Positions 3,184 through 29,560 of a DNA stretch of 64,000 nt are shown here, piece after piece (the first letter of the stretch is position 1; the number at the start of each line of letters is the position of its first letter). This DNA is from a virus (Duplodnaviria; Heunggongvirae; Uroviricota; Caudoviricetes): the IMG/VR virus record IMGVR_UViG_3300034355_001008, one strand, 5' to 3'. The notes under the pieces are model-generated. The model was given only the letters and a program-made list of their open reading frames with translations. It ran no database searches and was not told the DNA's origin. A program made the translations under genes and the position numbers.

Positions 3184-3188
3184 ATACT

Positions 3189-3265: not shown

Positions 3266-3287
3266 ATTAATTTAATAAGAGAAAGTT

Positions 3288-3470: not shown

Positions 3471-3473
3471 TTC

Positions 3474-3502: not shown

Positions 3503-3515
3503 AGTAATGTAATTT

Positions 3516-3592: not shown

Positions 3593-3598
3593 AATATT

Positions 3599-6886: not shown

Positions 6887-6950
6887 GCTGATTGTTCCTT
6901 AATAACAGTTAGTGTAAGTGGATGTTAGCGCATCGCGACTTACAAATATT

Positions 6951-6958
6951 TATAAATA
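6951..6958 (+). promoter_or_regulatory. T4 late-promoter-like TATAAATA box upstream of regA
   Basis: Exact TATAAATA 40 nt upstream of the regA ATG. Confidence 0.3.
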
Positions 6959-15603: not shown

Positions 15604-16283
15604 CTGTAGAATTAAGATGTATGTATTGGCAAAATGGTGAATATTTAATTGAATCGCATAAAAAAGTAACTGAACATTTAGGGTTACAGGTTCAATATGA
15701 TTTAACAACAATTCCTCATGGTCAATGGATGAATGAGGTTTTAGAAAATAGCACAGCTGACGTTGTTGGTTTTTTTGATAATGATTGCGTTCCCTTAAAT
15801 GCAGGTATTGTAGAATATGCTATTGCATATGCAACTGCAACAAAATCATTTATTGGAACAGCTCAAGCATCAAATCATATTGCTCCAAGAGCGCATATTT
15901 TTGCTGCTCCGTGCTTTTTCTTTATATATAGAGATACTTGGGTTAAAATGGGTAAACCATCTTTCTTAGAAAATTCAAGAAGCGATGTTGCTGAAGAAGT
16001 TTCATACGTTGCTGAAGATTTTATGGTTCCATATAAAGCATTGTATCCAACAAATTTTGAGCGTGAGCCGGTTGAAGGTGTTTGGAGATTGGGTAATTTT
16101 GGATATTACGGTATTGGAACAGTATTTGCTAATTCTGTATATCATTTATTTCAGGGAAGATATAAACAAAACGCTGACTTATTTAAATTAAGATGCGATG
16201 AAATAGTAGATGGAACGTTTTCTACTAATGGTATGTTTAATTCTATTGAAGTTTATTCTGGAAAAATTTGTAATTATTCGTAA
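15591..16283 (+). CDS. hypothetical protein, possible glycosyltransferase-like (DND motif)
   Basis: VVGFFDNDCVPLNAG resembles a GT-A DxD loop. Weak. Confidence 0.35.
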   Translation: MEEVTVELRCMYWQNGEYLIESHKKVTEHLGLQVQYDLTTIPHGQWMNEVLENSTADVVGFFDNDCVPLNAGIVEYAIAYATATKSFIGTAQASNHIAPRAHIFAAPCFFFIYRDTWVKMGKPSFLENSRSDVAEEVSYVAEDFMVPYKALYPTNFEREPVEGVWRLGNFGYYGIGTVFANSVYHLFQGRYKQNADLFKLRCDEIVDGTFSTNGMFNSIEVYSGKICNYS

Positions 16284-16298
16284 TTTGGGGGTTTTAAA

Positions 16299-17330
16299 AT
16301 GGCAAAAAGAGTATTAATAACAGGCGGAGCAGGTTTTATTGCACATCATGTTCTATATCATTTCCTAACAAATACTGACTGGGAAATTGTTACGTTAGAC
16401 AGATTAGATTTATCTGGTAATTTAAATAGATTAGCTGACGTTATTGCTAGAAATCCGGAATTTAAAAGTAGAATTAAATTCGTATTTCATGATTTAAAAG
16501 CTGAAATTTCAACATTAACACAGAATTTTATTGGTGAAATAAATTATATCCTACATTTAGCTGCAGGAAGTCATGTAGATCGATCTATTGAATTTCCTAT
16601 GGAATTTGTAATGGATAATGTTGTTGGTACTACAAATATCCTAGAGTTCGCTAGAAAACATAAAAGTTTAGAAAGATTTATCTATTTTTCTACTGATGAA
16701 ATTTTTGGTGTCGCCCCAGAGGGCGTTGATTATAAAGAACGCGATAGATATAATTCAACAAATCCATATTCAGCTTCTAAAGCTGCAGGCGAAGAATTGT
16801 GTGTAGCATATGAAAATACTTATGGAACTCCGATCTTTGTTACTCACACAATGAATGTGTTTGGTGAGCGTCAACATCCAGAAAAGTTTATTCCATTATG
16901 TATCCGTAGAGCTAGAGATGGAGATACAGTTTTTATTCATTCTAATGCTGATAAAACTCAAGCTGGTAGCCGCCATTATATTCATGCTAGTGATGTTGCT
17001 GATGCTATGTTATTCTTATTAAATTTAGATAATCCTTCTATCTACGAACCTGATTATGGTAATGCTAAATGCCCTAAATTTAATGTTGTTGGTAAAGAAG
17101 AAATTGATAATTTATCTTTAGCCAAAATGATTGCTGCTGCAGCGGGAAAAGAATTAAATTATGAAATGATTGATTTCCATACTTCTAGACCTGGACACGA
17201 TTTACGTTATGCTTTATCTGGTGAATATATGAAATCTCTAGGTTGGGAACCAAAAGTATCTCTTCAAGAACGTATTTCAGAAGTCGTTCATTGGTCATTA
17301 GATAATCAAGAATGGATTGAGTTAGCCTAA
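16299..17330 (+). CDS. NAD-dependent sugar-nucleotide 4,6-dehydratase/epimerase (SDR family, RfbB-like)
   Basis: LITGGAGFIAHH Rossmann motif and YSASKAAGE (YxxxK catalytic motif). 343 aa. Confidence 0.7.
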   Translation: MAKRVLITGGAGFIAHHVLYHFLTNTDWEIVTLDRLDLSGNLNRLADVIARNPEFKSRIKFVFHDLKAEISTLTQNFIGEINYILHLAAGSHVDRSIEFPMEFVMDNVVGTTNILEFARKHKSLERFIYFSTDEIFGVAPEGVDYKERDRYNSTNPYSASKAAGEELCVAYENTYGTPIFVTHTMNVFGERQHPEKFIPLCIRRARDGDTVFIHSNADKTQAGSRHYIHASDVADAMLFLLNLDNPSIYEPDYGNAKCPKFNVVGKEEIDNLSLAKMIAAAAGKELNYEMIDFHTSRPGHDLRYALSGEYMKSLGWEPKVSLQERISEVVHWSLDNQEWIELA

Positions 17331-18112
17331 TGAAAAAATATTTGTATTATCACATTTACCTTACTGATGATACTGGAACTTGGTCTAGTTTATTTATAGA
17401 CCAAGTTTATTTAACTATAAATTCCGGTTTATATGATGAATTGGAAAAAATGTATGTTAATTGTATCGGTTCACCGGAACAAATAAATTTATTTGTTGGA
17501 TTATGTACTCAGTTTAATAAAATTCAAGTATTAAATTGTTGTGAAACTAAATTAAATGATCAACAATTATCTTCTAATTATTTGGATAATCATAATCCTC
17601 ATGACGAAACTATAACAATGAAAGAATTACAGGCTCATGCTAAACGCGAAGATGCTTATTTTCTTTATCTTCATTCTAAAGGAGTTACTGCTACAAGTAG
17701 AATGAAACAAGCAGGCGATTTTAGAAGATATGTTAATTATTATAATTGGAGAAAGTTTTTAGAATGGGGTTGCGTTGAAAACTGGAAACTTTGTATTAAA
17801 GCATTAGAAACACATTCTTGCGCTGGAGTTAATTTGTGCGAATGGCCAACTCCTCATTATTCAGGAACAATTTGGTGGTCTAAATCTTCGCATATAAATA
17901 AACTCCCTGATATAATGGAAAATGATTGGTGGATAAATTTAATTAATTCTACTGATTTACGAACTTGGAATTCTATTAGGCTAAAAGCTGAAATGTGGAT
18001 AGGTTCAGTTTGTAATAGCGATTTCTATACAATAAAAAATGCTCCCTTTATGCCGCCAATTTCAAGTTTAGGTGAAACATACTTTCCTAGATCAATGTAC
18101 GAAAAGGATTAA
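17330..18112 (+). CDS. hypothetical protein in sugar operon (possible transferase)
   Basis: 260-aa ORF in an ATGA overlap with the upstream gene. FLYLHSKGVTAT motif of unknown family. Confidence 0.4.
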   Translation: MKKYLYYHIYLTDDTGTWSSLFIDQVYLTINSGLYDELEKMYVNCIGSPEQINLFVGLCTQFNKIQVLNCCETKLNDQQLSSNYLDNHNPHDETITMKELQAHAKREDAYFLYLHSKGVTATSRMKQAGDFRRYVNYYNWRKFLEWGCVENWKLCIKALETHSCAGVNLCEWPTPHYSGTIWWSKSSHINKLPDIMENDWWINLINSTDLRTWNSIRLKAEMWIGSVCNSDFYTIKNAPFMPPISSLGETYFPRSMYEKD

Positions 18113-18115
18113 ATA

Positions 18116-18865
18116 ATGCCAAAAATATCAATAATTGCCCCCATTCATACTTCTTCTATTAGAGAAGGTTATAGTGAAAGATTTTTAGTAGAATTTTTTG
18201 CTTCATTATCGTATCAACATTTTAAAGATTTCGATATTGTTGTTGCTGACCATAGTGTTGGTGATAATTTAAAAGCTATTTGTGACACTTTTTCTCATGT
18301 ATTAGATATTAAATACTATAAAAACGATTATATGCGAGGTTCTACTGCAGCCAATGTTAATTTTGGTATGAAAAAAGCTACTGGAGAAATATGTAAAATT
18401 TTATTTATGGATGATTTTTTTGTTGAACAAACTGGGTTGCAGGAAACTTGGGATGCGTTTCAAGCAAATCCAGATAAAAAGTGGTTGATTGCTGGCTTTG
18501 TTAATTGTAATGAAGATAGAACTGAATTTTTTAATGCTAGGCTACCTAGATTTGATAATGCATATGTTAACGGAGATAATTCAACGGGAAATCCTTCTAC
18601 TTATGCAGTTCGTAGAGAATTTGCTATTGATATGGATGAAAATTTACGATTCGTAGTTGATGGAGAATACTTTGTTAGATCGTACTGGCATTATGGTCCT
18701 CCAATTATGATTGAAAAAGTTGTTCATTGTTTTAGATATCACGAAGATGCTAATTATTTAAAACCTGAATTACAAGCTCTTGAAACAGAAGAACGTCAAT
18801 ATTCAGTAGAAAAATTTAGAAAAATGGATGAGGAAAGAGCTAATGCGAATCGCGTTCCACAGTAA
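18116..18865 (+). CDS. glycosyltransferase family 2-like
   Basis: ISIIAPIHTSS…DIVVADHS…LFMDDFF gives a GT-A-like layout. Confidence 0.5.
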   Translation: MPKISIIAPIHTSSIREGYSERFLVEFFASLSYQHFKDFDIVVADHSVGDNLKAICDTFSHVLDIKYYKNDYMRGSTAANVNFGMKKATGEICKILFMDDFFVEQTGLQETWDAFQANPDKKWLIAGFVNCNEDRTEFFNARLPRFDNAYVNGDNSTGNPSTYAVRREFAIDMDENLRFVVDGEYFVRSYWHYGPPIMIEKVVHCFRYHEDANYLKPELQALETEERQYSVEKFRKMDEERANANRVPQ

Positions 18866-19832
18866 TCAATTAGGTGAAAGAGGTACTGAAATTTGTCTCT
18901 ACAAATATGCAAAATATAATAGAGAAATTTTGGGTAATGAATCTATTATTATTTCCTCTGGATTAAAACCAACTCCATCTTTAAATCGATTTAAAGATTT
19001 TTCAACAATCTTATATGAAGAAGAATATAGAGATGGAGCTAAAAATAATAATGTTAGAACTGCTATAGAAAAAATTTGCGATAAGCAAAAGATTGATGCG
19101 TTCTATGCAATTAAAGCTGGAGAAAATGATGGTATAATGCCTACTAATGCTAAATCGTTGGCTCATTGTGTGTTTAGAATGCACGATCCTCATGCTGACG
19201 TTTATTCTGGGGTATGTAAATATATTTCAGAAAAATTTGGAGCAACTCATCCTTATGTTCATCATATTCTAGAAAAAGAAGCTTCAGATATGCATGATAC
19301 ATTTAGAGAAGAATTGGGTATCCCTAAAGATGCATTAGTTCTTGGGCGTCATGGTGGTAGAGAAACTTTTAACCTACAATTTGTTTATCCTGCAATTAAA
19401 AAAGCGTTAGAGGATCGTAAAGACCTCTGGTTCGTCTTTTTAAATACAGATAAGTTTATTGATCACGAACGAGTTATTCATCTTCCATGGACGATGGACG
19501 AGCAAGTAAAAGCGAAGTTTGTTAATACTTGTGATGCTATGATGCATGCAAGAGCTGATGGGGAAATATTTAGTTTATCTGTAGCTGAATTTACTATTAG
19601 AAATAAACCTGTTATTTCTTGGTTACCAAAAGAAATACCGCATTTTTATGATTATGGTCATATTTACTTAATGCAAAATAAAGCAATTTATTATGATACT
19701 GCCCAAGATCTATATAATATATTATGTTTCTTTGATAGAAATGAGATAGCTAAAATAGATTGGGATGGTTATACTGCTAATTATACTCCAGAAATCGTAA
19801 TGCAAGAATTTAAGGATGTTTATTTAACATGA
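18828..19832 (+). CDS. glycosyltransferase, GT-B fold (GT1/GT4-like C-terminal half)
   Basis: C-terminal LVLGRHGGRETFN…VFLNTDKF…CDAMMHARADGEIFSLSVAEF resembles the Rossmann donor-binding half of GT4 enzymes. Confidence 0.4.
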   Translation: MRKELMRIAFHSNQLGERGTEICLYKYAKYNREILGNESIIISSGLKPTPSLNRFKDFSTILYEEEYRDGAKNNNVRTAIEKICDKQKIDAFYAIKAGENDGIMPTNAKSLAHCVFRMHDPHADVYSGVCKYISEKFGATHPYVHHILEKEASDMHDTFREELGIPKDALVLGRHGGRETFNLQFVYPAIKKALEDRKDLWFVFLNTDKFIDHERVIHLPWTMDEQVKAKFVNTCDAMMHARADGEIFSLSVAEFTIRNKPVISWLPKEIPHFYDYGHIYLMQNKAIYYDTAQDLYNILCFFDRNEIAKIDWDGYTANYTPEIVMQEFKDVYLT

Positions 19833-20776
19833 TAGTAACGAATTGTCCATTAAGGGTTTCTTTATTCGGGGGTTCTACTGATAATCCTCTTTTTATTGAG
19901 AGATATGGATATGGCTCAGTAATAAGTTTTACTTGTGATTTAAAAACCTATGTTACAATTCATGAAGATAAAGTTGGTTATAACAAACATTTACATAAAT
20001 ATGTTCTTAATTATTCTATTAGAGAAGAAGAATCTTTTGCTAAAGATATAAAAAATGAAGTTGTTAGAGTTGTATTAGAATATTTTAATATAGATCCTCT
20101 AACAATTTCATTAACCAGCGATGTTTACTCACAAGGGAGTGGATTGGCATCTTCGTCAGCTTATATTATTTCTTTAATTAAAGCGATATCTATTAAAAAT
20201 GAATTACATTTAACTGATACTGAAATTTGTTTAATTGCTCTTGAATTAGAACAAAAGTTTAATCCGCATTGTGGATTACAAGATCCATTTGGTTGCGGGG
20301 TTGGCGGATTTAAGCGTATTGAATTTGAGAGAAATAATAAGGTTAGATATACATTCCTCCCAACAAAAATATTTGATATTTATGATATGCATTTAGTTTT
20401 TACAGGGGTTAATCGAAATTCAAAAAACGTATTAAAAGATGTTACTAATAATATAGAAAAATCTCGTGGACTAATTCAAATTGTTGAGTTGGCTCAACAA
20501 GCATTATATAATGAAGAATATGAGTTATTTTTGCAATATGTTTCTGATAGCTGGAAACTTAAAAAGGAAACAAGTAATTTAATTACCGAGAATGTAACTG
20601 TAGCTGAAATCGATCAAATATTATTAGATAACCCGACAGTATTAGCTCATAAATTATGCGGTGCAGGAAATGGCGGATTTTATCTTGTATTTTCAAAGAA
20701 AAACTGCTTGACTTTATCGTTACCTTATATTAAAATAAATGTAAGTTCATCAGGTGTAGAAGGTATAAAAATATGA
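19829..20776 (+). CDS. GHMP-family sugar kinase (D-glycero-D-manno-heptose 7-phosphate kinase HddA-like)
   Basis: PLRVSLFGGSTD and SSGLASSSA GHMP motifs. 315 aa. Confidence 0.7.
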   Translation: MIVTNCPLRVSLFGGSTDNPLFIERYGYGSVISFTCDLKTYVTIHEDKVGYNKHLHKYVLNYSIREEESFAKDIKNEVVRVVLEYFNIDPLTISLTSDVYSQGSGLASSSAYIISLIKAISIKNELHLTDTEICLIALELEQKFNPHCGLQDPFGCGVGGFKRIEFERNNKVRYTFLPTKIFDIYDMHLVFTGVNRNSKNVLKDVTNNIEKSRGLIQIVELAQQALYNEEYELFLQYVSDSWKLKKETSNLITENVTVAEIDQILLDNPTVLAHKLCGAGNGGFYLVFSKKNCLTLSLPYIKINVSSSGVEGIKI

Positions 20777-21288
20777 GTTTAATAAAAGATTGTATAGATA
20801 TTTTATCTAAAATGGAAGATTCCGAAGAATACAATAAATTTAAAAGCGTTTTTAAGCAAAACAATAAATTTATTATTATCGGTAATGGAGGAAGCAATTC
20901 AGTTGCTTCTCATATCTCGCAAGATTATGTTAAAAAGTGTCATAAACATTCTTTAACGTTTTCCGATCCATCTATGTTAACGTGTTTTATTAACGATTAC
21001 GGTATGGAAAATGCGTATTTAGAATTTGTAAAAGCATACAGAACTTATGATACATTTATTATTTTAATAAGTTCTTCTGGCGAATCAGAAAATATATTAA
21101 AGGTAATTAAATATTGCGAAGCAAATGATTACCCTTATGGAATATTAACTGGATTTGCAAAAAGTAACAGTGCTAGAGTTTTGGGTCGTTTAGGTCGTAA
21201 TGCCAAATTTGATTATCACGTTAATAGTAAAGATTATGGCGTAGTTGAGTGCGTACACCAAATATTTTTGCATGGAGTTGTTGAATGA
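20773..21288 (+). CDS. SIS-domain sugar-phosphate isomerase (phosphoheptose isomerase GmhA-like)
   Basis: FIIIGNGGSNSVASHISQD…DTFIILISSSGESENIL SIS motifs. 171 aa. Confidence 0.65.
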   Translation: MSLIKDCIDILSKMEDSEEYNKFKSVFKQNNKFIIIGNGGSNSVASHISQDYVKKCHKHSLTFSDPSMLTCFINDYGMENAYLEFVKAYRTYDTFIILISSSGESENILKVIKYCEANDYPYGILTGFAKSNSARVLGRLGRNAKFDYHVNSKDYGVVECVHQIFLHGVVE

Positions 21289-22013
21289 TTTATTGTTTTG
21301 ATTTAGACGGAACGATTTGTTCCTCTGTTGAAAATAGCGAATATTATAATTCTATTCCAGATAAAACTGTAGTTAATGAGATTAACCGTTTATATGATTC
21401 TGGCCATGAAATTATTATTATGACTGCAAGAGGTTGCGTTAGTGGAATTGATCATTATGATTTAACTGAAGACCAATTAAGAAAATGGGGTATAAAACAT
21501 CATAAATTGCTTATGGGTATTAAACCTCATGCTCATATTTTTATTGATGATAAAGGGGTTTCCATTGATGATTGGAAAAACTCAATTCCAAATAAATTTG
21601 GAGTATTAGCTGGAGCGTTTGATATTATTCATCCTGGATATGTTAGAATGTTTAAAGAAGCTAAATTACATTGCACTAATTTAACAGTATTATTAAATAT
21701 TTCTCCAGCAAATAAAATTACCCCAGTACAAACAGTAGAAGAACGTATTGAAATATTATCTGCAATTAGATATATTGATAATGTTATCTGTTATTCTACA
21801 GAAGAAGAATTGTATAATTTACTAGAGATAAATAATTTTGACATTCGTTTTTTGGGTTCTGATTATAAAGATAAAAGTTTCACTGGTAAAGATTTAGAAT
21901 TACCTGTTTATTTTATAGAACGCGATCATAGTTATTCTGCTACTGCATTGAAACAAAAAATATTTGATTCAATAAATTTATATTTTAAACAAACAATAAA
22001 TGGTGATGTATGA
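21285..22013 (+). CDS. bifunctional HAD-like phosphatase / HIGH-motif sugar-phosphate nucleotidyltransferase (GmhB-like + RfaE-domain-II-like)
   Basis: N-terminus MIYCFDLDGTIC is a HAD motif I. C-terminal GAFDIIHPGYVRMF is a cytidylyltransferase-like (H/T)xGH motif, as in HldE domain II. Confidence 0.55.
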   Translation: MIYCFDLDGTICSSVENSEYYNSIPDKTVVNEINRLYDSGHEIIIMTARGCVSGIDHYDLTEDQLRKWGIKHHKLLMGIKPHAHIFIDDKGVSIDDWKNSIPNKFGVLAGAFDIIHPGYVRMFKEAKLHCTNLTVLLNISPANKITPVQTVEERIEILSAIRYIDNVICYSTEEELYNLLEINNFDIRFLGSDYKDKSFTGKDLELPVYFIERDHSYSATALKQKIFDSINLYFKQTINGDV

Positions 22014-22915
22014 AAGTATTGGTTACTGGTGGTTGCGGGTTTATTGGAAGTCATTTAATTGATTTGTTAGTTGATTCTGGTTATACTGTTGTTAATGTTG
22101 ATGATTTATCAGCAGATAATGATCAATTTTATTTTAATGAGAATATTAAAAATTATCATTTTGATATTTGTAATACTAAGCAATTAATATCAGTTAGTAG
22201 AGGGTGTGAATTTATATTTCATTTAGCAGCAGAATCGCGATTAGGTGCTTCTATTGCTAATCCAAGAAAAGCAATTGATTCTAACATTAAAGGCGTTGTT
22301 TCGGTATTAGAAGCAGCAAAAGCAAATAAGATTAAAGGTATTGTTTTCTCTTCAACATCTTCAATATATGGATTAAATACAAATTTTCCGCTAAAAGAAA
22401 CTGAGCGAGAAGATTGTTTAAATGCGTATGCATCAACTAAGTATGCAGCAGAATTATTTTTGAGAAACTATTATGAAATCTACGGAATTAAATCAGTTAT
22501 TCTTCGTTATTTTAATGTTTATGGTGAACGTTCTCCCAAATCTGGTCAATATGCGCTAGTATTAGGTATCTTTGAAAAATTATTAAAAGATGGTAAACCA
22601 TTAACAGTTACTGGTGATGGAACCCAAGAGCGAGATTTTATACATGTAAAAGATATTGCTCAGGCTAATATACGATGTATTGATAATTTTGATACAAATC
22701 CAGATATGTGGAAAGCTCAAGTATTTAATATTGGATATGGAGAAACAAAAACTATTAATGAAATTGCTAATACTCTATCAGATAGTATTGTTTATATTAA
22801 AAAACCAGCTGGCGAAGCATTAAATAATTTATCAGATAATACTAAATTTAAATTAGCAACAAATTGGGTTCCAACTATAAATGTGATTGACTGGATTAAA
22901 GAAAAACTATTATAA
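22010..22915 (+). CDS. NAD-dependent nucleotide-sugar epimerase (SDR; HldD/GalE-like)
   Basis: VLVTGGCGFIGSHL and YASTKYAAE (YxxxK). 301 aa. Confidence 0.7.
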   Translation: MKVLVTGGCGFIGSHLIDLLVDSGYTVVNVDDLSADNDQFYFNENIKNYHFDICNTKQLISVSRGCEFIFHLAAESRLGASIANPRKAIDSNIKGVVSVLEAAKANKIKGIVFSSTSSIYGLNTNFPLKETEREDCLNAYASTKYAAELFLRNYYEIYGIKSVILRYFNVYGERSPKSGQYALVLGIFEKLLKDGKPLTVTGDGTQERDFIHVKDIAQANIRCIDNFDTNPDMWKAQVFNIGYGETKTINEIANTLSDSIVYIKKPAGEALNNLSDNTKFKLATNWVPTINVIDWIKEKLL

Positions 22916-22923
22916 TATAAATA
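22916..22923 (+). promoter_or_regulatory. T4 late-promoter-like TATAAATA (overlapping a TATAAT)
   Basis: Exact TATAAATA 38 nt upstream of the ligase-like gene. Confidence 0.3.
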
Positions 22924-22960
22924 GTTAATTATATTATATACATTAAGCCAGAGAGGTTAT

Positions 22961-24133
22961 ATGCTAAGTTTTAAAGATTTTCTTGTTGAGAACGAGGAAG
23001 AAGGTGCTAAATTAAAGCACATTAAACATCCAGAAGATAGAGTTTTTGAAGGTTCAAATGGATATGCTCATGCTAAAGGTGCATTGCATCATGCTCATGA
23101 TGCAATTAAATCTGGAGAACATAGCACTAACCTTACTATGAAATACGATGGATCTCCTTCCATCGTATATGGTCATCATCCAGAGAATGGTAAATTCTTT
23201 GTAGCCAGTAAATCTGCATTTAATAAAAATCCAAAAATAAATTATACTCACGAAGATATTGAGCAAAACCATGGCCATGCTCCTGGATTAGTTGAGAAGT
23301 TAAAAGATTCGTTGGATCATTTACATAAAATTACTCCAAAAAAGGGTGTATATCAAGGCGATTTAATGTTTAGTGGAGATGATAAGAAACATAATGATAA
23401 TGGATCCGTATCATTTACTCCAAATACAATTAAATATACTGCTCACGGCGAAGAAGCAGATAAAGTTAAAAAAGCAAAATTAGGTGTTGTTACTCATACA
23501 CAGTATCATGGAAATACCTTATCTTCTATGAAAGCTGATCCTCATCCAGATTTACATAATTTTAAATCTCATTCAGATGTTTGGAGTAAAACTCCAGAAC
23601 ACGATACCAAAAACGTTCATTATAGCGAAGCTGATCAAGCTAAATTTCAAAAACATATGGATGCTGCTGATAAAATTCATAAAACGCATAAAGATACTAT
23701 GTATGATGCTACAGCTCCTCATGGTGGTGACAGCGGTCATTTAGCAACATATATTAATCATACGGTTAGAACTGGCGAAAAACCTTCTGCAGATGGATTG
23801 CAGAATCATATAGTAGGTAAATATGAAAAACAAATTGATAAGTTAAAAAGTGATGCAGGTAAAGCTAGAAAACATACTGAACTGACTAGTCATCTATCTC
23901 ATATTGCTGGTAATTCTGATCATTATAATCGTTTATTAAAAATGCATGGCCATTTACAGTCGGCTAAAAATATTTTAACCAAAACATTAAATCAACATGA
24001 AGGTGGATTAGAACACCATATTGGTGACAAAAGAACAAATCCGGAAGGATTTGTTATTCATCATAATGGAGAACCAACTAAACTTGTTAATAGAGAAGAA
24101 TTTTCTAAAGCTAATTTGTTAAAGGTACGTTAA
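22961..24133 (+). CDS. ATP-dependent polynucleotide ligase-like nucleotidyltransferase (Rnl2/RNA-ligase-like), His-rich
   Basis: Motif I LTMKYDGSPS (KxDG), motif III-like VYQGDLMFSG, motif V-like NTIKYTAHG. Unusually His-rich throughout its 390 aa. Confidence 0.45.
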   Translation: MLSFKDFLVENEEEGAKLKHIKHPEDRVFEGSNGYAHAKGALHHAHDAIKSGEHSTNLTMKYDGSPSIVYGHHPENGKFFVASKSAFNKNPKINYTHEDIEQNHGHAPGLVEKLKDSLDHLHKITPKKGVYQGDLMFSGDDKKHNDNGSVSFTPNTIKYTAHGEEADKVKKAKLGVVTHTQYHGNTLSSMKADPHPDLHNFKSHSDVWSKTPEHDTKNVHYSEADQAKFQKHMDAADKIHKTHKDTMYDATAPHGGDSGHLATYINHTVRTGEKPSADGLQNHIVGKYEKQIDKLKSDAGKARKHTELTSHLSHIAGNSDHYNRLLKMHGHLQSAKNILTKTLNQHEGGLEHHIGDKRTNPEGFVIHHNGEPTKLVNREEFSKANLLKVR

Positions 24134-24756
24134 TGAGCACTAAAAATCCTGTTGTTACTGCTTTTGGTAGAATGAATCCACCTACAACTGGGCACTTACA
24201 GTTAATTAATGCTGTTCGTTCTACTGCAGAAAAAGAAAATGCTGATCATGATATTATCGCTTCAGGTAGTCATGATCCAAAGAAAAATCCATTAACTTCA
24301 GAACACAAATTAAAACATTTATCTAGATATTCTCCTGGAACTAATTTTTCTGTAGCTGATTCTAAATCTCCAACATTATTACATCATTTATCTAAATTAC
24401 ACGATAAAGGTCATGATCATTTAATTTATGTTGCGGGTTCGGATCGCACAAAAGATATGGAAGAATTAATACATAAATATAATGGAGTGCCATCTAAACA
24501 TGGATATTATAATTTTAAAAAGATAGAAGTGCGTTCAGCTGGTCATAGAGATCCAAATGCAGAAGGAACTGCTGGTATGTCTGGAACTAAAATGCGAGAA
24601 TTTGCTAAAAACAATGATTTTCATTCATTTAGACAAGGAGTTCCATCTCACGTTTCAGATGATCATGCAAAAGAATTGATGAGTGATGTTAAATCTGGTA
24701 TGAATGTTCATGAATCATATATTCGTGGATTTTTAAACAAAATAAGACTATTTTAA
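24133..24756 (+). CDS. HIGH-motif nucleotidyltransferase (NMN/NaMN adenylyltransferase- or cytidylyltransferase-like)
   Basis: TAFGRMNPPTTGHLQLI resembles GRFQPxHxGH of NMNAT/PPAT-class enzymes. 207 aa. Confidence 0.45.
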   Translation: MSTKNPVVTAFGRMNPPTTGHLQLINAVRSTAEKENADHDIIASGSHDPKKNPLTSEHKLKHLSRYSPGTNFSVADSKSPTLLHHLSKLHDKGHDHLIYVAGSDRTKDMEELIHKYNGVPSKHGYYNFKKIEVRSAGHRDPNAEGTAGMSGTKMREFAKNNDFHSFRQGVPSHVSDDHAKELMSDVKSGMNVHESYIRGFLNKIRLF

Positions 24757-24757
24757 A

Positions 24758-25570
24758 ATGCAAAATAAACAAGCAATTTTTATTATCGGATCTCCTGGAT
24801 CCGGAAAGGATGTCGTAATTAGAGATATTGCATCTAATTACGGTATTGTAGAATTTACGTCAACTCAAATTGATGAGATGTTATATAATGACGCAGTATT
24901 TAAACGAGCTAAATCGGAAAAACAAGATTCTCTTTTAGAAAGATATTCTATACTCGTTACTGGAAATTCATTTGATTTAGGGTTTGTTATAACTAAAGAT
25001 ATATTAGAAGCAATTGGTTATACAACGCATTTAATTGTTGTTGAGGCTGATTTAGGAATTGCTGTTGAAAGATTAAAAGATAGAAAAAATTTAAAAGAAT
25101 CATTGGATAGAATTAGTGTTGGAAATGCAAATAGACAAGCAATTATTAGTTTATTTAACTCTTATATTACTGTGGATAATTCAAAATCATTGGATTTAAC
25201 TGAATCAAGAGAATTTATTTATGATATTTTAGAAGATTTAACATTTAAATCCGATTTGCGTTTAGAAGAAATTGTAAAAATTAATTTGAAGAAAAAGGTT
25301 AATAAAATTGTTCCATTAAAACTTCCTGCAGATACTTCTGATACGAGAAGTATGACTCCAGGGACGTGGTCTGTTTATAATGGAGTTGCTGAATCAGTTG
25401 AATCACCTAATTATGATATTTCCCCTATAGCTACCGGTCCTATGCAAAGTACCGCATCTTCAACAGTTAGTATGCAATCTGATCAAGATAAAGAAAATAC
25501 CAGAAAAGTGTTGAATAAAATTAAAAAAATAAATTTCAGAAAGGTAATCCCAAATGCCATCGAAAAATAA
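24758..25570 (+). CDS. P-loop kinase-like protein (polynucleotide kinase / zeta-toxin-like)
   Basis: N-terminal Walker A FIIGSPGSGKDVV (compare T4 Pnk GCPGSGKST). No HAD phosphatase domain seen. Confidence 0.45.
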   Translation: MQNKQAIFIIGSPGSGKDVVIRDIASNYGIVEFTSTQIDEMLYNDAVFKRAKSEKQDSLLERYSILVTGNSFDLGFVITKDILEAIGYTTHLIVVEADLGIAVERLKDRKNLKESLDRISVGNANRQAIISLFNSYITVDNSKSLDLTESREFIYDILEDLTFKSDLRLEEIVKINLKKKVNKIVPLKLPADTSDTRSMTPGTWSVYNGVAESVESPNYDISPIATGPMQSTASSTVSMQSDQDKENTRKVLNKIKKINFRKVIPNAIEK

Positions 25571-26303
25571 ACATAGTTCAAGTAGGTTTACTTCACTAAA
25601 AGGGGCATTTTCATCTACTCATCCATCGAAACATTTTCATGGAAAAGAAGCAAAACCTAGTGTAATTACTCCAGATTATTCTGATACATCAACCCCGCAG
25701 CTAGTTGCACATTCATCAGGAAAAAATTCGCCATTTTCATTATCATTCAAAGATAGATTAGTAATGAAATATCATGAAGAGTTTTGTGGATTAACTGAGG
25801 ATACAGATACTTCTGTTAGACAATATAAAAATCCAGAAACTGCTCGTTTTGCTAAAGCTGGTATTCATTTGCATTCAAGATATACAAATCCAAAAATTGC
25901 ACAATTAACTAATAAATTTAATAATCGCGAAAAAAAGGTAACTAAATCTGATAGCGAAATTAAAGCAGATACTATTTTAATGAATACTATGAATAGGGAA
26001 CATGAAAAAAATTATCAAAATAAATTTCATCATGAATATAAACCTCCGGAACGCGCAGTTCATTCAAAACCTCCTGTTAACACGCAACATTTGACTCATA
26101 CTGAACCTCATGTAGTTCCGCCAAGTCATCCTGTTCCGCATGCTCCTGTTCCACATATTCCAAATCATCCGCAACATCAAAGTAATCCTGCTATGCATGA
26201 TCCGCATATTATTGGACAAAAACAAGATTCTTTTGTTGTAAAACATACGCCGAAATTTAACCCGCCGGCTAAATTTCACCCAATTAAAAACAACAATAAA
26301 TAA
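25554..26303 (+). CDS. hypothetical His/Pro-rich protein
   Basis: C-terminal HVVPPSHPVPHAPVPHIPNHPQHQSNPAMHDPH low-complexity region. Confidence 0.4.
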   Translation: MPSKNKHSSSRFTSLKGAFSSTHPSKHFHGKEAKPSVITPDYSDTSTPQLVAHSSGKNSPFSLSFKDRLVMKYHEEFCGLTEDTDTSVRQYKNPETARFAKAGIHLHSRYTNPKIAQLTNKFNNREKKVTKSDSEIKADTILMNTMNREHEKNYQNKFHHEYKPPERAVHSKPPVNTQHLTHTEPHVVPPSHPVPHAPVPHIPNHPQHQSNPAMHDPHIIGQKQDSFVVKHTPKFNPPAKFHPIKNNNK

Positions 26304-26316
26304 TAGGAGAAGTTAA

Positions 26317-26733
26317 ATGGATTTTAAAGCCATAAAAGAGCTTAGATTAGAGAATTCTTTACAGGATATTGAAGTAACAGAAGAATTTGAACAAATCGAC
26401 GAAATTAGTAATTACGATCAAGTTGTTACATATTATAGACATCTAAAATTAGATCCATATAAATTGCGCGGGGTTGCTGGATCTAGGCTTCGTGAAAGAA
26501 TTAAAAACTCTCCTGCATTTAAAGCATGGCTTCAATTAAAAGCGCATAATGTAGAAAGTGTTGAAAGTAATTCAACAAAAACATTAATTGAAACTATTAA
26601 AGATGCTAAGAAAGATAGTGTTGGAAAAAAAGCAAAAGTTACTTTTTATGGTTATCCAGGTAAAGATGCTAAAATGAGTAATACCGATTTAGAACAGGCT
26701 AATACTCCAAATAATTACCTTAACCAAAATTAA
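26317..26733 (+). CDS. hypothetical protein
   Basis: 138-aa ORF with RBS AGGAGAAG. Confidence 0.45.
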   Translation: MDFKAIKELRLENSLQDIEVTEEFEQIDEISNYDQVVTYYRHLKLDPYKLRGVAGSRLRERIKNSPAFKAWLQLKAHNVESVESNSTKTLIETIKDAKKDSVGKKAKVTFYGYPGKDAKMSNTDLEQANTPNNYLNQN

Positions 26734-26749
26734 AAATAATATTATAATT

Positions 26750-27133
26750 ATGGATGACTTGACTGAAGATAATTTTTTATTATTTGCCGCAAAACATTAT
26801 TATTCTGTGCATTATTCTATGACTGAATTTAATTCCGATTTAAAAAGAATAATTTACATTAAACGATTGTTAAAGAAATATAAAAAATCCGGCGAATTAG
26901 CTGAACGGTTAATTTTAAATCATTTAATATTATTATATAACGTTTTTGAACCAACTATAGCTGTAAATAAAATGTTATTTTTTAAATTAGATGATAATTG
27001 CTATAGTGCATTAAAAACGTTTTTAGTTTATCTAAATAGAATGCCTACAGAAATTTTGTATGATGGAACTAAATTAATTTCCTCTGATATTCCTTTAGAT
27101 ATGGAAATCGCAAAAATATTAAGAGAATTATGA
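26750..27133 (+). CDS. hypothetical protein
   Basis: 127-aa ORF. Confidence 0.4.
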   Translation: MDDLTEDNFLLFAAKHYYSVHYSMTEFNSDLKRIIYIKRLLKKYKKSGELAERLILNHLILLYNVFEPTIAVNKMLFFKLDDNCYSALKTFLVYLNRMPTEILYDGTKLISSDIPLDMEIAKILREL

Positions 27134-27307
27134 AAACATTTAAACAATTTTTAGAAGAAGATGGAGAAGGTGCTCCTGCTGCGGTTAGTACCGCTCCAAC
27201 TAATACTACAAATGGTATAGCAGGACTTAAAGATCCTGGAGTAAGAGTGCCAAGAAAAAAACAATCTCCAGTTATGACTGGAACTCCAATAACAAGGGCA
27301 GGATAAA

Positions 27308-27832
27308 ATGGATAATAAATATAAAAATAAATTAACTTCTATTATTGAAGATTGCGGTTTTAATAGAACACGTAAAGCTAATCAAAAAGAAATAGAACAA
27401 GCTTTATTTGAAGCTACAAAACCTGGATATCCGCCTGAAGAAGCTCAAGATCCAAGTTCAAAAGAAGGAATTTCCAATGCAATTGCTTCTGAATTTTTTG
27501 CTCGTTGTAGAGCTCTAGCTACAACTACTCATTTTGCTCATTTAAGTACAGATTCTTTTTCGGAACATTCTGCTCTAACAACTTTTTATGAAGAAATTGT
27601 TGAAACTGTAGATAAATTCTGTGAAGCTTATATTGGATTATATGGTAAATTTATTAGTTTGCCTCCAATTGCTGCTGAAATGAAAATCGCAGTTGATGCT
27701 ATTATAGAATTTAGGGATTGGATTTCTAAAAATAGAGGATTAATTACTGATGATACTTCTATGCAAAATATAATTGACGAATCTGTTGAATTATGCAATA
27801 CTACAATTTATAAATTACAAAAATTGAAATAA
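27308..27832 (+). CDS. hypothetical protein
   Basis: 174-aa ORF with RBS AGGGCAGGA. Confidence 0.45.
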   Translation: MDNKYKNKLTSIIEDCGFNRTRKANQKEIEQALFEATKPGYPPEEAQDPSSKEGISNAIASEFFARCRALATTTHFAHLSTDSFSEHSALTTFYEEIVETVDKFCEAYIGLYGKFISLPPIAAEMKIAVDAIIEFRDWISKNRGLITDDTSMQNIIDESVELCNTTIYKLQKLK

Positions 27833-27844
27833 CTGGTATTTGTT

Positions 27845-28036
27845 ATGATGACTGTCAAAGAGGCAACCCCGATGATCCATTATAATAATTATAACGATAA
27901 AGAAATATTATCAAAAAGTAATATAGCAAAAAGACTTAACTTATTGCGATCTTTAGAAAATTATTCTCATAAACTAGATAAATTACTTGAACAAACATCA
28001 AAAATAGAAGATATTTCCCTAAAGGTGGGCAGATAA
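27845..28036 (+). CDS. hypothetical small protein
   Basis: 63-aa ORF. Confidence 0.3.
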   Translation: MMTVKEATPMIHYNNYNDKEILSKSNIAKRLNLLRSLENYSHKLDKLLEQTSKIEDISLKVGR

Positions 28037-28494
28037 TGGCAGATAATTCAACGTTGCATGATGTAAAAGTCGAAACGTTATCGGAATTAAAAGTTGAAGT
28101 TGCAGTCTTAAAACAAGAAGTCGGATTTATTAATAGGCTTTTTAGTAGAATCGAAGACGTAATTGATAAAATCGATACTCAACATGCAGCAGTATTAGAT
28201 AAAACTACGAAAATAGAATATAACCTTCTTAATACTAAAGATGAATTAGAAGATTTATATAAAATATTAGAAGACTCTGAGAAAAATATTTCAAGTAGAA
28301 TTAATGCTATTGAGAAGTTATTAACAGAGGAAATTAATTCTATGAATAAAACTTTAACTGATAGAGTTGATAAAAATGAAGCCAAAACTGTAGACCTATT
28401 ACAATACAAATGGTTATTGTGGGGCGGCGGTGTAGTTGTTTTATGGATATTTTCAAATATTGATATGCTCAAAAAATTATTTGTAATAAAATAA
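28036..28494 (+). CDS. coiled-coil protein with C-terminal transmembrane anchor
   Basis: Heptad-rich sequence with C-terminal WLLWGGGVVVLWIFSNIDML. Followed by a terminator. Confidence 0.45.
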   Translation: MADNSTLHDVKVETLSELKVEVAVLKQEVGFINRLFSRIEDVIDKIDTQHAAVLDKTTKIEYNLLNTKDELEDLYKILEDSEKNISSRINAIEKLLTEEINSMNKTLTDRVDKNEAKTVDLLQYKWLLWGGGVVVLWIFSNIDMLKKLFVIK

Positions 28495-28527
28495 TGCTTT
28501 ACTTTTTTATCTTTTCGTAGTATAATA

Positions 28528-28556
28528 AGCCTGAATATAAACTTCAGGCTTTTTTA
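28528..28556 (+). terminator. rho-independent terminator (AGCCTGAA…TTCAGGCT + T5)
   Basis: 8-bp stem, 6-nt loop, TTTTT. Directly precedes the primase ATG. Confidence 0.7.
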
Positions 28557-28558
28557 TA

Positions 28559-29560
28559 ATGAGCATTTGGATAGATAGAAAATACATTTTAATGTTATCA
28601 CCTAAGTTGGAACTCTTTAAACAAAAGAATACCAACCTATATACCATGCGTTGCCCATATTGCGGCGACTCTCAAAAAATGAAATCAAAAACTCGTGGAT
28701 TCGTTTATGCAAAAAACGATAATTATTTCTACACGTGTTTTAATTGCGATAAAGGAACAACTCTTAGATCTTTGCTTGGTTATCTAGATCCTCACCTAGA
28801 ACAAGAATATATCATGGAAAATTTCCAGGAAAAATTTACTGGAAAGAAAAATAATTCTATTGATAAACCTGCAATTCCAAAATTTAAAATTCAAGATAAA
28901 AAAATAGATTTACCTACTATTGCTGATTTAGATGATAGTCATATTGCTAAAAAGTATATCTTAGATCGCAAAATACCAGAAAAATATCTTAAATATCTAT
29001 TTTTTACTGATGATTTTAAAGCTTTTGTTGAATCCGTTTCTGATAAAAAACTTGATCAAACTGGTCCAAGGGTAATCATTCCATTTTATTCTAGATCTGG
29101 TGATTTAGTTGCATTTCAGGGAAGAGCTCTTGATAGTTATTCCATGAGATATATAACAGTAAAGATTGACAGGGAACAAGAAAAGATTTTTGGGCTGGAT
29201 AAAGTTGATCCAATGAAGCTGATTTATGTTGTAGAAGGTCCATTCGATTCTTTATTCCTACCAAACGCGATCGCAACTGCAGACTCAAATTTGGCCGCTG
29301 CAGCTAATGTGTTTGATAAGAGTAAGTTGATACTAATCCCTGACTGCGAGCCTAGAAACGCGAATATCGTTAAAAATATCGGGAAGTTTATTAAGAATGG
29401 GTTCTCTGTTTGTTTATTACCAGAATCATTTGGAGTTAAGGATATTAATGATGCAATAAAAAATGGCTTGACGCAGGAGGAATTATTAGTTATAATAAGT
29501 AATAACACCTTCTCTGGGTTACGAGCTGAACTGGAATACTTAAATTGGAAGAAAATATGA
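28559..29560 (+). CDS. 61: DNA primase gp61
   Basis: Zinc ribbon RCPYCGDSQKMKSKTRGFVY…CFNCD (T4: RCPVCGDSKTDQNKARGWYY). YITVKIDREQEKIFG and VEGPFDSLF align with T4 gp61 (YITIEAYPEATKIYG, LEGPIDSLF). Confidence 0.85.
   Translation: MSIWIDRKYILMLSPKLELFKQKNTNLYTMRCPYCGDSQKMKSKTRGFVYAKNDNYFYTCFNCDKGTTLRSLLGYLDPHLEQEYIMENFQEKFTGKKNNSIDKPAIPKFKIQDKKIDLPTIADLDDSHIAKKYILDRKIPEKYLKYLFFTDDFKAFVESVSDKKLDQTGPRVIIPFYSRSGDLVAFQGRALDSYSMRYITVKIDREQEKIFGLDKVDPMKLIYVVEGPFDSLFLPNAIATADSNLAAAANVFDKSKLILIPDCEPRNANIVKNIGKFIKNGFSVCLLPESFGVKDINDAIKNGLTQEELLVIISNNTFSGLRAELEYLNWKKI

What the first reader, a model, noticed from the sequence alone, without database searches (positions are those of the whole stretch)
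22961..25570. Ligase + HIGH-motif nucleotidyltransferase + P-loop kinase trio: candidate RNA-repair or NAD-related counter-defence module
Three consecutive genes sit after a TATAAATA box. The first is a covalent nucleotidyltransferase with a KxDG motif I (LTMKYDGS) and ligase-like motifs III and V, and it is conspicuously His-rich. The second has a GRMNPPTTGH motif, as in NMN/NaMN adenylyltransferases and other cytidylyltransferase-fold enzymes. The third is a Pnk-like P-loop kinase (GSPGSGKDV). T4 uses Pnk plus Rnl1 to re-ligate tRNA cut by the PrrC anticodon nuclease. This trio could be an analogous but differently composed healing-and-sealing kit. Alternatively, the NMNAT-like enzyme could be part of an NAD+ salvage countermeasure against NAD-depleting defences. 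Neither architecture matches the described T4 set.
Basis: partly seen in the sequence, partly recalled or inferred. Interest (0 to 1): 0.65.

Follow-up and report, generated by a model that had tools for sequence, protein, structure and literature searches.

The report
New ligase–adenylyltransferase–kinase phage module
Three neighbouring genes in a T4-like marine phage form a conserved enzyme set built around a previously unrecognised type of nucleic-acid ligase, which most likely repairs and rejoins broken RNA or DNA ends and is carried by nearly all cyanobacterial and SAR11 T4-like phages.

Summary
In detail: all three ORFs, the quoted motifs, the TATAAATA box and the His-richness are real.

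- **Protein 2** is an NMNAT/PPAT-like adenylyltransferase.
- **Protein 3** is a Pnk/PSTK/zeta-type P-loop kinase.

The genes are functionally linked. The adenylyltransferase follows the ligase in 48 of 49 loci and is fused to it in 7. The kinase is present in 17 of 49 and is fused to the adenylyltransferase in 14. A TATAAATA box is conserved upstream in 36 of 81 loci.

The most likely function is a nucleic-acid (probably RNA) end-healing-and-sealing module with a new composition. It is a core gene set, not an accessory counter-defence.

Two rival readings are weakened because phage DLP6 carries this module together with a canonical DNA ligase and a NadV/NMNAT-Nudix pair. These are a replacement DNA ligase and an NAD-salvage role.

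The role of the adenylyltransferase is still unexplained.

The parts
22887..22916 (+). Sigma-70-like promoter match (TTGACT-18-TATAAT, 11 of 12), abutting the late box
   Evidence: Best-scoring consensus match in 22000-29000. Promoter-like sites are not enriched in the region overall, so this is weak evidence.
22916..22923 (+). T4-type late-promoter-like box TATAAATA, 45 nt upstream of the p1 start
   Evidence: A box at a similar distance occurs upstream of DUF6267 in 36 of 81 related loci, against a background of 0.018 per 150 nt.
22961..24133 (+). p1: DUF6267 protein, a ligase-fold covalent nucleotidyltransferase. K61 is motif I, D134 motif III, E362-G363 motif IV, K374/R378 motif V. A helical domain is inserted at about res 216-348. 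There is no OB domain.
24133..24756 (+). p2: HIGH-motif (TxGH variant) adenylyltransferase of the NMNAT/PPAT group, with a C-terminal SGTKMR motif
24758..25570 (+). p3: P-loop kinase (Walker A GSPGSGKD, invariant R105xxxR109) with a roughly 100-aa C-terminal tail predicted to be unstructured
   Evidence: Sub-threshold AAA_33, AAA_18 and Zeta_toxin hits. Profile against PDB: adenylate kinase E=7e-5. Homologous to the kinase domain of the L004 CT-kinase fusion (E=1e-14) and to the HTVC008M kinase, which matches Zeta_toxin at 3e-13, AAA_33 at 4e-11 and PSTK at 2.5e-10.
25554..26303 (+). p4: His/Pro-rich 249-aa protein overlapping the end of p3 by 17 nt. Possible accessory component; function unknown.
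   Evidence: No family hits. At 9.6% His it is the second most His-rich ORF in the window, alongside p1 and p2.
28527..28551 (+). First strong intrinsic-terminator-like hairpin downstream, a possible end of the transcription unit that starts at 22916
   Evidence: 9-bp stem followed by a T run. Terminator-like sites: 7 found against 2.3 expected.

Best explanation
The trio is a single co-inherited enzyme module centred on a new clade of lysine-adenylate polynucleotide ligase. p1 has the ligase nucleotidyltransferase core. It lacks the OB domain found in every DNA ligase and capping enzyme. Instead a helical domain of about 125 residues is inserted between motifs IIIa and IV. That is an RNA-ligase-like design unlike any of Rnl1 to Rnl6.

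Proposed mechanism:
1. The P-loop kinase phosphorylates 5'-OH ends (inferred).
2. p1 adenylylates itself on K61 with ATP, transfers AMP to the 5'-phosphate, and seals it to a 3'-OH (inferred from fold and invariant motifs).
3. The NMNAT/PPAT-like adenylyltransferase is nearly always adjacent or fused to the ligase and supports the adenylate chemistry. This is the least certain step. It could adenylylate or de-adenylylate a terminal phosphate, or it could make an ADP-linked cofactor such as NAD+ locally.

In some lineages a Pol-beta-type nucleotidyltransferase is fused on as well, as in RNA-repair systems that rebuild lost 3' nucleotides. The substrate is more likely RNA (possibly tRNA) than DNA. 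The module is transcribed from a conserved T4-type late promoter. It is a core gene set of cyanomyoviruses, pelagimyophages and their relatives, so it probably serves a routine need of infection rather than an optional counter-defence.
For: - Catalytic motifs: K61, D63, G64, K84, D134, E362, G363 and K374 are 100% conserved, and R378 is 99% conserved, in 76 sequences down to 32% identity. Motif IV, PEGFVIH, resembles EGFVIR of Trl1 and EGYVAV of T4 Rnl1.
- Architecture: there is no OB domain and the protein ends 12 residues after motif V.
- Linkage: the adenylyltransferase lies within 3 kb downstream in 48 of 49 loci, is adjacent in 21 and is fused to the ligase in 7. The kinase is present in 17 and is fused to the adenylyltransferase in 14. 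S-PM2d138 is a ligase-adenylyltransferase fusion.
- Kinase type: AAA_33, Zeta_toxin and PSTK, a tRNA-acting Pnk-related clade.
- A Pol-beta NTase (GS...DxD) is fused to the adenylyltransferase in 4 loci. Published work links Pol-beta NTases of the RlaP family to RNA ligases in repair.
- In phage DLP6 the module coexists with a canonical DNA ligase and a canonical NAD-salvage pair, so its function is distinct from both.
- The late-promoter box is conserved.
Against: - No biochemical data exist for any family member, and no paper mentions DUF6267.
- No 3'-end-healing phosphoesterase (HAD, 2H or metallophosphoesterase) is conserved in the module, which a classical repair kit for 2',3'-cyclic-phosphate breaks would need.
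- The kinase is absent from about two thirds of loci, including cyanophages, so it is not part of the core.
- No known repair system uses a HIGH-motif nucleotidyltransferase, so its role here is conjecture.
- The genes sit inside the DNA-replication and nucleotide-metabolism block.
- HTVC008M has no other ligase, which fits a DNA role equally well.
- Core-gene status is unusual for RNA repair, which is accessory in T4.
Confidence: 0.45

Rival explanations
1. p1 is the phage's own DNA ligase. It replaces the T4 gp30-type ligase that cyanomyoviruses and pelagimyophages lack. It seals Okazaki fragments, recombination nicks and nicks in concatemers before packaging. The kinase, and the Pol-beta NTase where present, tidy DNA ends.
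For: - gp30 is listed among the 'non-cyanophage core' or quasicore genes missing from T4-like cyanophages.
- The complete HTVC008M genome has a full T4 replisome but no gp30, Rnl1 or Rnl2 homologue, so DUF6267 is its only ligase-fold gene.
- gp30-type hits in 2,645 phage records do not include Synechococcus phages among the top 10 organisms, whereas 371 Synechococcus phage records carry DUF6267.
- The module lies between gp41 helicase and gp61 primase in the replication block.
- Late expression would suit nick sealing before packaging.
Against: - There is no OB domain, which every characterised DNA ligase has (contrast the DLP6 ligase).
- DLP6 carries both DUF6267-CT and a canonical NTase+OB DNA ligase.
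- The top structural neighbours are RNA ligases.
- Replicative sealing needs no kinase or adenylyltransferase partner.
- These phages could use the host ligase.
Confidence: 0.2
2. p2 and p3 form a NadR-like NAD+ synthesis pair: a nicotinamide-riboside kinase plus an NMN adenylyltransferase. Another ADP-cofactor pair, such as PPAT plus dephospho-CoA kinase, is also possible. The ligase-like p1 would be an NAD+-using enzyme, with p2 regenerating NAD+ from the NMN it releases. The role would be metabolic support or protection against NAD+ depletion.
For: - Weak NCBIfam hits favour NMNAT models (20, 16 and 8 members) over CoaD (7).
- The CT-then-kinase fusion order is the same as in NadR.
- JGI labels several p3 homologues dephospho-CoA kinase.
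- The fusion of p2 to a ligase-fold enzyme could reflect NAD+/NMN channelling.
Against: - The NadR model aligns only to the first 60 or so profile positions and never over the kinase. The kinase matches PSTK, Zeta and AAA_33 rather than the NadR ribosylnicotinamide kinase.
- No NAMPT or Nudix was found in the ORFs of 100 aa or more scanned in window 1-36.5 kb, or in the HTVC008M annotation.
- DLP6 already has NadV plus NMNAT-Nudix elsewhere in its genome as well as this module.
- p1 has no counterpart of the LigA Ia domain that binds NMN (not directly tested).
Confidence: 0.15
3. The proteins have mainly a late, assembly-related or virion-associated role, comparable to the tail-fibre-attachment activity of T4 gp63 (Rnl1). 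Alternatively they are packaged and injected. Ligase chemistry would be secondary or vestigial.
For: - The late-promoter box is conserved.
- In cyanophages virion-protein genes lie a few kb downstream.
- Motifs IV and V show local similarity to Rnl1.
- p1, p2 and p4 share an unusual, co-varying His-richness that suggests a common physical environment.
Against: - Strict invariance of every catalytic motif residue over deep divergence argues for retained enzymatic activity.
- No virion-proteome evidence was found.
- In the window the module is surrounded by replication genes, not structural genes.
Confidence: 0.07

Closest known systems
T4 Rnl1 (RnlA) + Pnkp (PseT) tRNA healing-and-sealing pathway
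   Same: A phage-encoded ligase-fold enzyme paired with a P-loop kinase of the Pnk-related clade. Motifs IV and V show local resemblance (NPEGFV..G..K against NIEGYV..G..K). T4 rnlA is described as also being expressed late (own knowledge).
   Different: No detectable sequence homology to Rnl1, Rnl2 or PseT. No HAD phosphatase domain on the kinase. The helical domain is inserted in the NTase core rather than appended at the C-terminus. There is an obligatory HIGH-motif adenylyltransferase partner. It is a core gene rather than an accessory one.
Rnl5 (Naegleria NgrRnl / Deinococcus DraRnl) and Rnl2/REL1 nick-sealing RNA ligases
   Different: Only 8-13% identity. The accessory domain differs: N-terminal in Rnl5 and C-terminal in Rnl2, but inserted here. 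RNA ligase families are defined by their appended domains, so this would count as a separate clade.
Fungal/plant tRNA ligase Trl1 (Rnl6: LIG-KIN-CPD) and bacterial Pnkp-Hen1 (Rnl4)
   Same: A multi-enzyme repair logic in which a ligase and a P-loop kinase are fused or co-encoded with a third end-processing activity. Trl1 motif IV, EGFVIR, and its motif IIIa His resemble PEGFVIH and the invariant H179.
NadR (NMNAT + ribosylnicotinamide kinase) and phage NadV/NatV NAD+ salvage (NARP2)
   Same: p2's fold is closest to NMNATs. HIGH-NTase followed by a P-loop kinase in one polypeptide mirrors the NadR domain order.
   Different: The kinase is not NadR-type. No NAMPT or Nudix partner was found. DLP6 carries a bona fide NadV/NMNAT-Nudix pair separately. 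The near-universal coupling to a ligase-fold enzyme is not a feature of any NAD pathway.
T4 gp30 / ATP-dependent DNA ligases
   Same: The same superfamily and the same motifs I, III, IV and V. DUF6267 carriers of the cyanophage and pelagiphage type lack gp30.
   Different: No OB domain or motif VI, no PF01068 match, and co-occurrence with a gp30-type ligase in DLP6.

Membership tests
Covalent (lysine) nucleotidyltransferase superfamily: ligases and capping enzymes | Motif I KxDG with a nucleophilic lysine at the end of a beta strand | tested here: met
   K61-Y-D63-G64 follows strand 54-61. K, D and G are 100% conserved in 76 sequences.
Covalent (lysine) nucleotidyltransferase superfamily: ligases and capping enzymes | Motifs III (acidic), IIIa (aromatic), IV (EG...) and V (K..K/R) in canonical order on the NTase beta sheets | tested here: met
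   Q132-G-D134-L on strand 129-138. H179/Y182 on strand 174-183. P361-E-G-F-V365 on strand 363-368. K374-L-V-N-R378 on strand 371-375. All are at least 96% conserved. The assignment rests on order and secondary structure, not on a residue-level superposition.
Covalent (lysine) nucleotidyltransferase superfamily: ligases and capping enzymes | NTase fold similar to solved ligases | tested here: met
Covalent (lysine) nucleotidyltransferase superfamily: ligases and capping enzymes | Formation of a covalent enzyme-NMP intermediate | not testable with these tools
   Needs an adenylylation assay with labelled ATP or NAD+.
ATP-dependent DNA ligase (T4 gp30 type, PF01068 + OB) | C-terminal OB domain with motif VI, and a sequence match to DNA_ligase_A_M | tested here: not met
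   No PF01068 or OB hit. The protein ends 12 residues after motif V and the model has no OB fold. hhalign against gp30 is not significant. The DLP6 gp30-type ligase shows both domains by the same test.
Rnl1 (T4 RnlA) | Sequence homology to Rnl1 and an appended C-terminal helical tRNA-specificity domain | tested here: not met
   hhalign E=0.11 over 18 residues only, at motifs IV and V. tblastn E=2.3. The helical domain here is inserted, not C-terminal.
Rnl2 / Rnl5 nick-sealing RNA ligases | Family-specific appended domain (C-terminal in Rnl2, N-terminal in Rnl5) and sequence homology | tested here: not met
NMN/NaMN adenylyltransferase (NadD, NadM, NadR-N) | (H/T)xGH and SxTxxR motifs, and an NMNAT-like Rossmann fold | tested here: met
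NMN/NaMN adenylyltransferase (NadD, NadM, NadR-N) | Score above the curated family cut-off, and discrimination from PPAT and other HIGH NTases | tested here: not met
NadR-type bifunctional NMNAT + ribosylnicotinamide kinase | Both domains of the fusion match the NadR model | tested here: not met
   TIGR01526 aligns only to profile positions of about 5-60 in the CT-kinase fusions. The kinase domains hit PSTK, UMP-CMP kinase and PezT instead. No AAA_28 hit.
T4-type polynucleotide kinase-phosphatase (Pnkp) | P-loop kinase with an RxxxR lid, plus a fused HAD 3'-phosphatase | tested here: inconclusive
   Walker A and the R105xxxR109 motif are present. hhalign against PseT covers only the P-loop (probability 51%). 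Pnkp1 E=0.43. There is no phosphatase domain in p3. Relatives match AAA_33, Zeta and PSTK.
Phage NAD+ reconstitution pathway 2 (NadV/NAMPT + NMNAT) | A NAMPT gene accompanying the NMNAT | tested here: not met
   No NAMPT in window ORFs of 100 aa or more up to 36.5 kb or in the HTVC008M annotation. The remaining window ORFs (37-64 kb, large structural-type genes) were not scanned.
T4-type late transcription unit | TATAAATA box about 40-60 nt upstream of the start codon, conserved in relatives | tested here: met
   Actual late transcription was not tested.

The most novel reading that the evidence does not exclude
The HIGH-motif adenylyltransferase acts directly in the ligation chemistry, which has not been described for any ligase system. 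It might pre-adenylylate 5'-phosphate (or 3'/2'-phosphate) nucleic-acid ends for the ligase-fold partner. It might reverse abortive 5'-adenylates by pyrophosphorolysis. Or it might feed NAD+ in cis to an NAD+-dependent RNA ligase. Together with the inserted-domain ligase, this would define a new polynucleotide-joining pathway (in effect an 'Rnl7' system) that is core to the most abundant T4-like phages of the ocean.
Probability: 0.15. Interest if true: 0.85.

Novelty: new variant of a known kind. Interest (0 to 1): 0.62.

Why it matters
DUF6267 (T4-GC 71) and its 'cytitidyltransferase' neighbour have been carried as unexplained core genes of marine T4-like cyanophages since the first genomes. 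They are also found in SAR11 and OM43 myophages and in thousands of metagenomic contigs (6,249 clusters at 90% identity).

Recognising the first as a ligase-fold enzyme of a new architectural clade, locked to an NMNAT-like adenylyltransferase and often to a Pnk-type kinase, yields a directly testable biochemical hypothesis.

It bears on three questions:
- How phages that lack a gp30 DNA ligase seal nucleic acids.
- Whether RNA or tRNA repair is routine in ocean phage infections.
- The enzymology of ligases: a HIGH-family partner would be a new accessory, and the enzyme could become a new molecular-biology reagent.

Tried and rejected
- Megablast of the region against 50,697 phage records found no match, so the phage itself is uncatalogued.
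- Sequence searches of p1 and p2 against PDB sequences, both single-sequence and profile, gave nothing useful.
- hhalign of the DUF6267 profile against T4 Rnl2, Rnl1 and gp30, and of the kinase profile against PseT, gave only short motif-level matches.
- Foldseek against the PDB was too weak to use alone.
- Literature searches for DUF6267 and 'cytitidyltransferase' found no papers. The Burroughs and Aravind RNA-repair paper was not held.
- An attempt to obtain an early, middle or late expression class for the cyanophage orthologue from a transcriptome paper's supplements gave ortholog lists only, with no timing.
- Window-wide TATAAATA enrichment was rejected as evidence (15 found against 18.7 expected). 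It was replaced by positional and phylogenetic conservation.
- The upstream HAD+cytidylyltransferase and epimerase genes were considered as part of the kit (weak PNKP-phosphatase-like hits). This was rejected: they belong to a heptose-nucleotide sugar island that differs between relatives.
- A search for a conserved phosphoesterase among clustered neighbours of 85 loci found none.
- The C-terminal extensions of the adenylyltransferase proteins gave only other DUFs: DUF5824, DUF5661, and DUF6321 in the next gene.
- The representative-library search was not used, because an unannotated hit list would not separate the hypotheses.
Full report
**1. What is in the sequence**

Three tightly packed + strand ORFs lie at 22961-24133 (p1, 390 aa), 24133-24756 (p2, 207 aa) and 24758-25570 (p3, 270 aa). 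A fourth ORF (p4, 25554-26303) overlaps the end of p3. TATAAATA lies at 22916-22923, 45 nt before the p1 ATG.

The window comes from a T4-like phage that has no close DNA relative among 50,697 phage records. Its gene order is:
- dNMP kinase and eight tRNA genes
- gp45, gp44, gp62, regA, Hsp20 and dCMP deaminase
- gp43 polymerase, UvsX and gp41 helicase
- a sugar-nucleotide island (14890-22915)
- the trio, then p4 to p7 and a Dps-like protein
- gp61 primase, ThyX, MazG, NrdB and NrdA

So the trio sits inside the replication and nucleotide-metabolism block. It is separated from the sugar island by the promoter-bearing spacer.

**2. Protein 1 is a ligase-fold enzyme of an unclassified clade**

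- p1 matches Pfam DUF6267 (E=1e-99) and PHROG 455, both of unknown function. No paper in the library mentions DUF6267.
- The family is large, with 6,249 clusters at 90% identity. In isolates it is found in 470 phage records. These are overwhelmingly Synechococcus and Prochlorococcus myoviruses, where it is annotated as cluster T4-GC 71. Pelagibacter phage HTVC008M, Methylophilales phages and a few others also carry it.
- Sequence searches against the PDB found nothing.
- An AlphaFold2 model built on 42 homologues is confident (pLDDT 85.9, pTM 0.82).
- In 76 homologues down to 32% identity, K61, D63, G64 (motif I), K84, D134 (motif III), E362, G363 (motif IV) and K374 (motif V) are 100% conserved. 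R378 is 99% conserved. These residues fall on the expected strands in the expected order.
- The protein ends 12 residues after motif V, so there is no OB domain. A helical domain (about res 216-348) is inserted between the motif IIIa strands and the motif IV and V strands. It carries its own invariant residues, N266 and K336, plus K296 at 96%.
- An N-terminal H20-x-x-H23-x-E25-D26 motif is also invariant and is unexplained.
- RNA ligase families Rnl1 to Rnl6 are defined by the domains appended to the NTase core. By that criterion this is a separate clade. Profile comparisons with T4 Rnl1, Rnl2 and gp30 are not significant. The only hint is motif IV/V similarity to Rnl1 and Trl1 (PEGFVIH against EGYVAV and EGFVIR).

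**3. Protein 2 is an NMNAT/PPAT-like adenylyltransferase**

- p2 passes the Pfam CTP_transf_like threshold (31 bits against 21). It matches the phage 'cytidyltransferase' PHROGs strongly.
- Its model is very confident (pLDDT 91.8).
- Of 47 family members scanned against NCBIfam, 20, 16 and 8 give weak hits to three NMNAT models and 7 to CoaD. All are far below the curated cut-offs.

So the fold class is settled but the acceptor substrate is not.

**4. Protein 3 is a P-loop kinase of the Pnk-related clade**

- On its own p3 gives only sub-threshold AAA_33, AAA_18 and Zeta_toxin hits. Its profile best matches adenylate kinase in the PDB (E=7e-5), mainly through the P-loop and an invariant R105xxxR109 motif.
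- p3 is homologous to the kinase domain of a CT-kinase fusion in locus L004 (E=1e-14). That domain in turn is homologous to the HTVC008M kinase (E=6e-19).
- The HTVC008M kinase matches Zeta_toxin (3e-13), AAA_33 (4e-11) and the seryl-tRNA(Sec) kinase model PSTK (2.5e-10, nearly full length).
- The NadR model never extends over the kinase domain of the fusions.

'Pnk-like' is thus acceptable as a clade label. There is no phosphatase domain and no specific similarity to T4 PseT beyond the P-loop.

**5. The three genes are functionally linked**

- I fetched 80 DUF6267 loci from viral contigs, spanning 32-71% identity, and scanned them with local HMMs.
- Of 49 loci with at least 3 kb of downstream sequence, 48 have the adenylyltransferase domain within 3 kb on the same strand. 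It is adjacent in 21 and in the same reading frame as DUF6267 in 7.
- The kinase is present in 17 of the 49, and in 14 it is in the same reading frame as the adenylyltransferase.
- S-PM2d138 is an annotated 591-aa DUF6267-CT fusion. HTVC008M has the order ligase, small ORF, kinase, CT+DUF5824.
- In four loci a Pol-beta-type nucleotidyltransferase (GS...DxD) is fused in front of the adenylyltransferase.
- No phosphoesterase is conserved in the neighbourhood.

**6. Expression signal**

TATAAATA is not over-represented in this AT-rich window. However, 8 of its 15 copies are in the 9.8% of sequence that is intergenic. A copy also lies within 150 nt upstream of DUF6267 in 36 of 81 loci, typically at -41 to -59 and including loci only 33-35% identical, against a background of 0.018 per 150 nt. 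This supports a conserved T4-type late promoter.

The best sigma-70-like match in the region (11 of 12) abuts the box. A strong terminator-like hairpin follows at 28527-28551.

**7. Testing the rival readings**

*DNA-ligase replacement*
- For: gp30 is reported among the genes absent from T4-like cyanophages. The complete HTVC008M genome has a full replisome but no gp30, Rnl1, Rnl2 or Pnk homologue. That makes DUF6267 its only ligase-fold gene, and it sits in the replication block.
- Against: the protein has no OB domain. The complete genome of Stenotrophomonas phage DLP6 carries DUF6267 (E=3e-118) and the adenylyltransferase (E=6e-59). It also carries a canonical NTase+OB DNA ligase that is 28% identical to gp30.

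*NAD salvage*
- For: p2's nearest folds are NMNATs, and the fusion order mimics NadR.
- Against: the kinase is not NadR-type. No NAMPT or Nudix accompanies the module. DLP6 has its own NMNAT-Nudix gene two genes from an annotated nicotinamide phosphoribosyltransferase, elsewhere in its genome.

Both rivals are therefore weakened but not excluded.

**8. Best explanation**

The module is a ligase-centred nucleic-acid end-processing system. Four observations point to RNA, possibly tRNA, healing and sealing:
- the RNA-ligase-like architecture
- the Pnk/PSTK-type kinase
- the occasional Pol-beta NTase, comparable to the RlaP enzymes that accompany RNA ligases
- independence from canonical DNA ligase and NAD salvage

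*Shown:* folds, motifs, linkage, fusions and the conserved promoter box.

*Inferred:* lysine adenylylation, 5' phosphorylation, the nature of the substrate, and above all the role of the adenylyltransferase, for which no precedent exists in repair systems.

The ligase-adenylyltransferase pair is syntenic and near-universal in these phages, so I consider 'counter-defence' less apt than a routine infection function. I give this explanation a confidence of 0.45.

**9. An unexplained feature**

p1 (10.5% His), p4 (9.6%) and p2 (8.2%) are the three most His-rich proteins in the window, whose median is 1.42%. Across 85 loci the ligase and its adenylyltransferase partner are both 4-16% His in every locus at least about 39% identical to the window. 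Both are 1-3% His in cyanophage and HTVC008M-type loci. Many of these histidines are invariant positions within the clade. The co-variation between the partner proteins is further evidence that they work together, but its cause is unknown.

**10. Verdict**

This is a new variant of a known kind: a healing-and-sealing-type module with a new ligase clade and an unprecedented adenylyltransferase partner. It is widespread in ocean T4-like phages and is directly testable.

Noticed in passing
window 22961-26303; loci L004, L010-L072 versus L001-L003, L073-L089: p1, p2 and p4 are 8-10.5% histidine against a window median of 1.4%. Across relatives the ligase and adenylyltransferase are both 4-16% His in one large clade and both 1-3% in the cyanophage and HTVC008M-type clade. 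Many of the His positions are invariant within the clade. The cause is unknown.
   Followed up: partly
window 14890-22915: A nucleotide-sugar island (two GT2 glycosyltransferases, two NAD epimerases, a GHMP kinase, a SIS isomerase and a HAD+cytidylyltransferase) that looks like a heptose-nucleotide pathway. A different glyco/methyltransferase island occupies the same position in relative L004, so this is a variable hotspot between gp41 and the module.
   Followed up: partly
window 1209-3672: Eight tRNA genes (Thr, Pro, Asn, His, Glu, Trp, Met, Gly) in two clusters flanking a dNMP kinase gene.
   Followed up: no
L074, L082, L085, L089 (ORF immediately upstream of and fused to the CT domain, e.g. 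L089:6684-8933): A Pol-beta-type nucleotidyltransferase domain (IGS...x11...DLDINV) is fused N-terminally to the adenylyltransferase in four cyanophage or pelagiphage-type loci. The Pfam NTP_transf_2 hit is only just sub-threshold.
   Followed up: partly
L094 (DLP6 KU682439: 98136-100772): Stenotrophomonas phage DLP6 carries a NadV-type nicotinamide phosphoribosyltransferase close to an NMNAT-Nudix gene (a NARP2-type NAD salvage pair), with a metallophosphoesterase just upstream. All are separate from its DUF6267-CT module.
   Followed up: partly
L004:1517-1969; phage records ACG-2014f, S-H38, S-SCSM2R, Xanthomonas XaC1: Short or N-terminal-half-only DUF6267-like matches occur, some as second copies. 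They may be truncated paralogues that lack the inserted domain and motifs IV and V.
   Followed up: no
window 27308-27832; about 3 kb downstream of DUF6267 in 18 related loci: A Dps/ferritin-like four-helix protein (DUF5856, or Pfam Ferritin in L065) recurs a few genes downstream of the module, together with DUF7207 (window 26750-27133).
   Followed up: no
window 6245-6886 (- strand): An HNH endonuclease gene on the opposite strand is inserted between gp62 and regA, flanked by back-to-back TATAAATA boxes at 6947-6958.
   Followed up: no
window 36059-36481: This 140-aa ORF matches the PHROG labelled 'NAD synthetase' (the cyanophage g202 label) but also homing-endonuclease PHROGs. The NAD synthetase name is probably a misnomer.
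   Followed up: no
window 22887-22923: The best sigma-70-like promoter match in the region (TTGACT-18-TATAAT) directly abuts the TATAAATA box, which suggests possible dual early and late transcription of the module.
   Followed up: no
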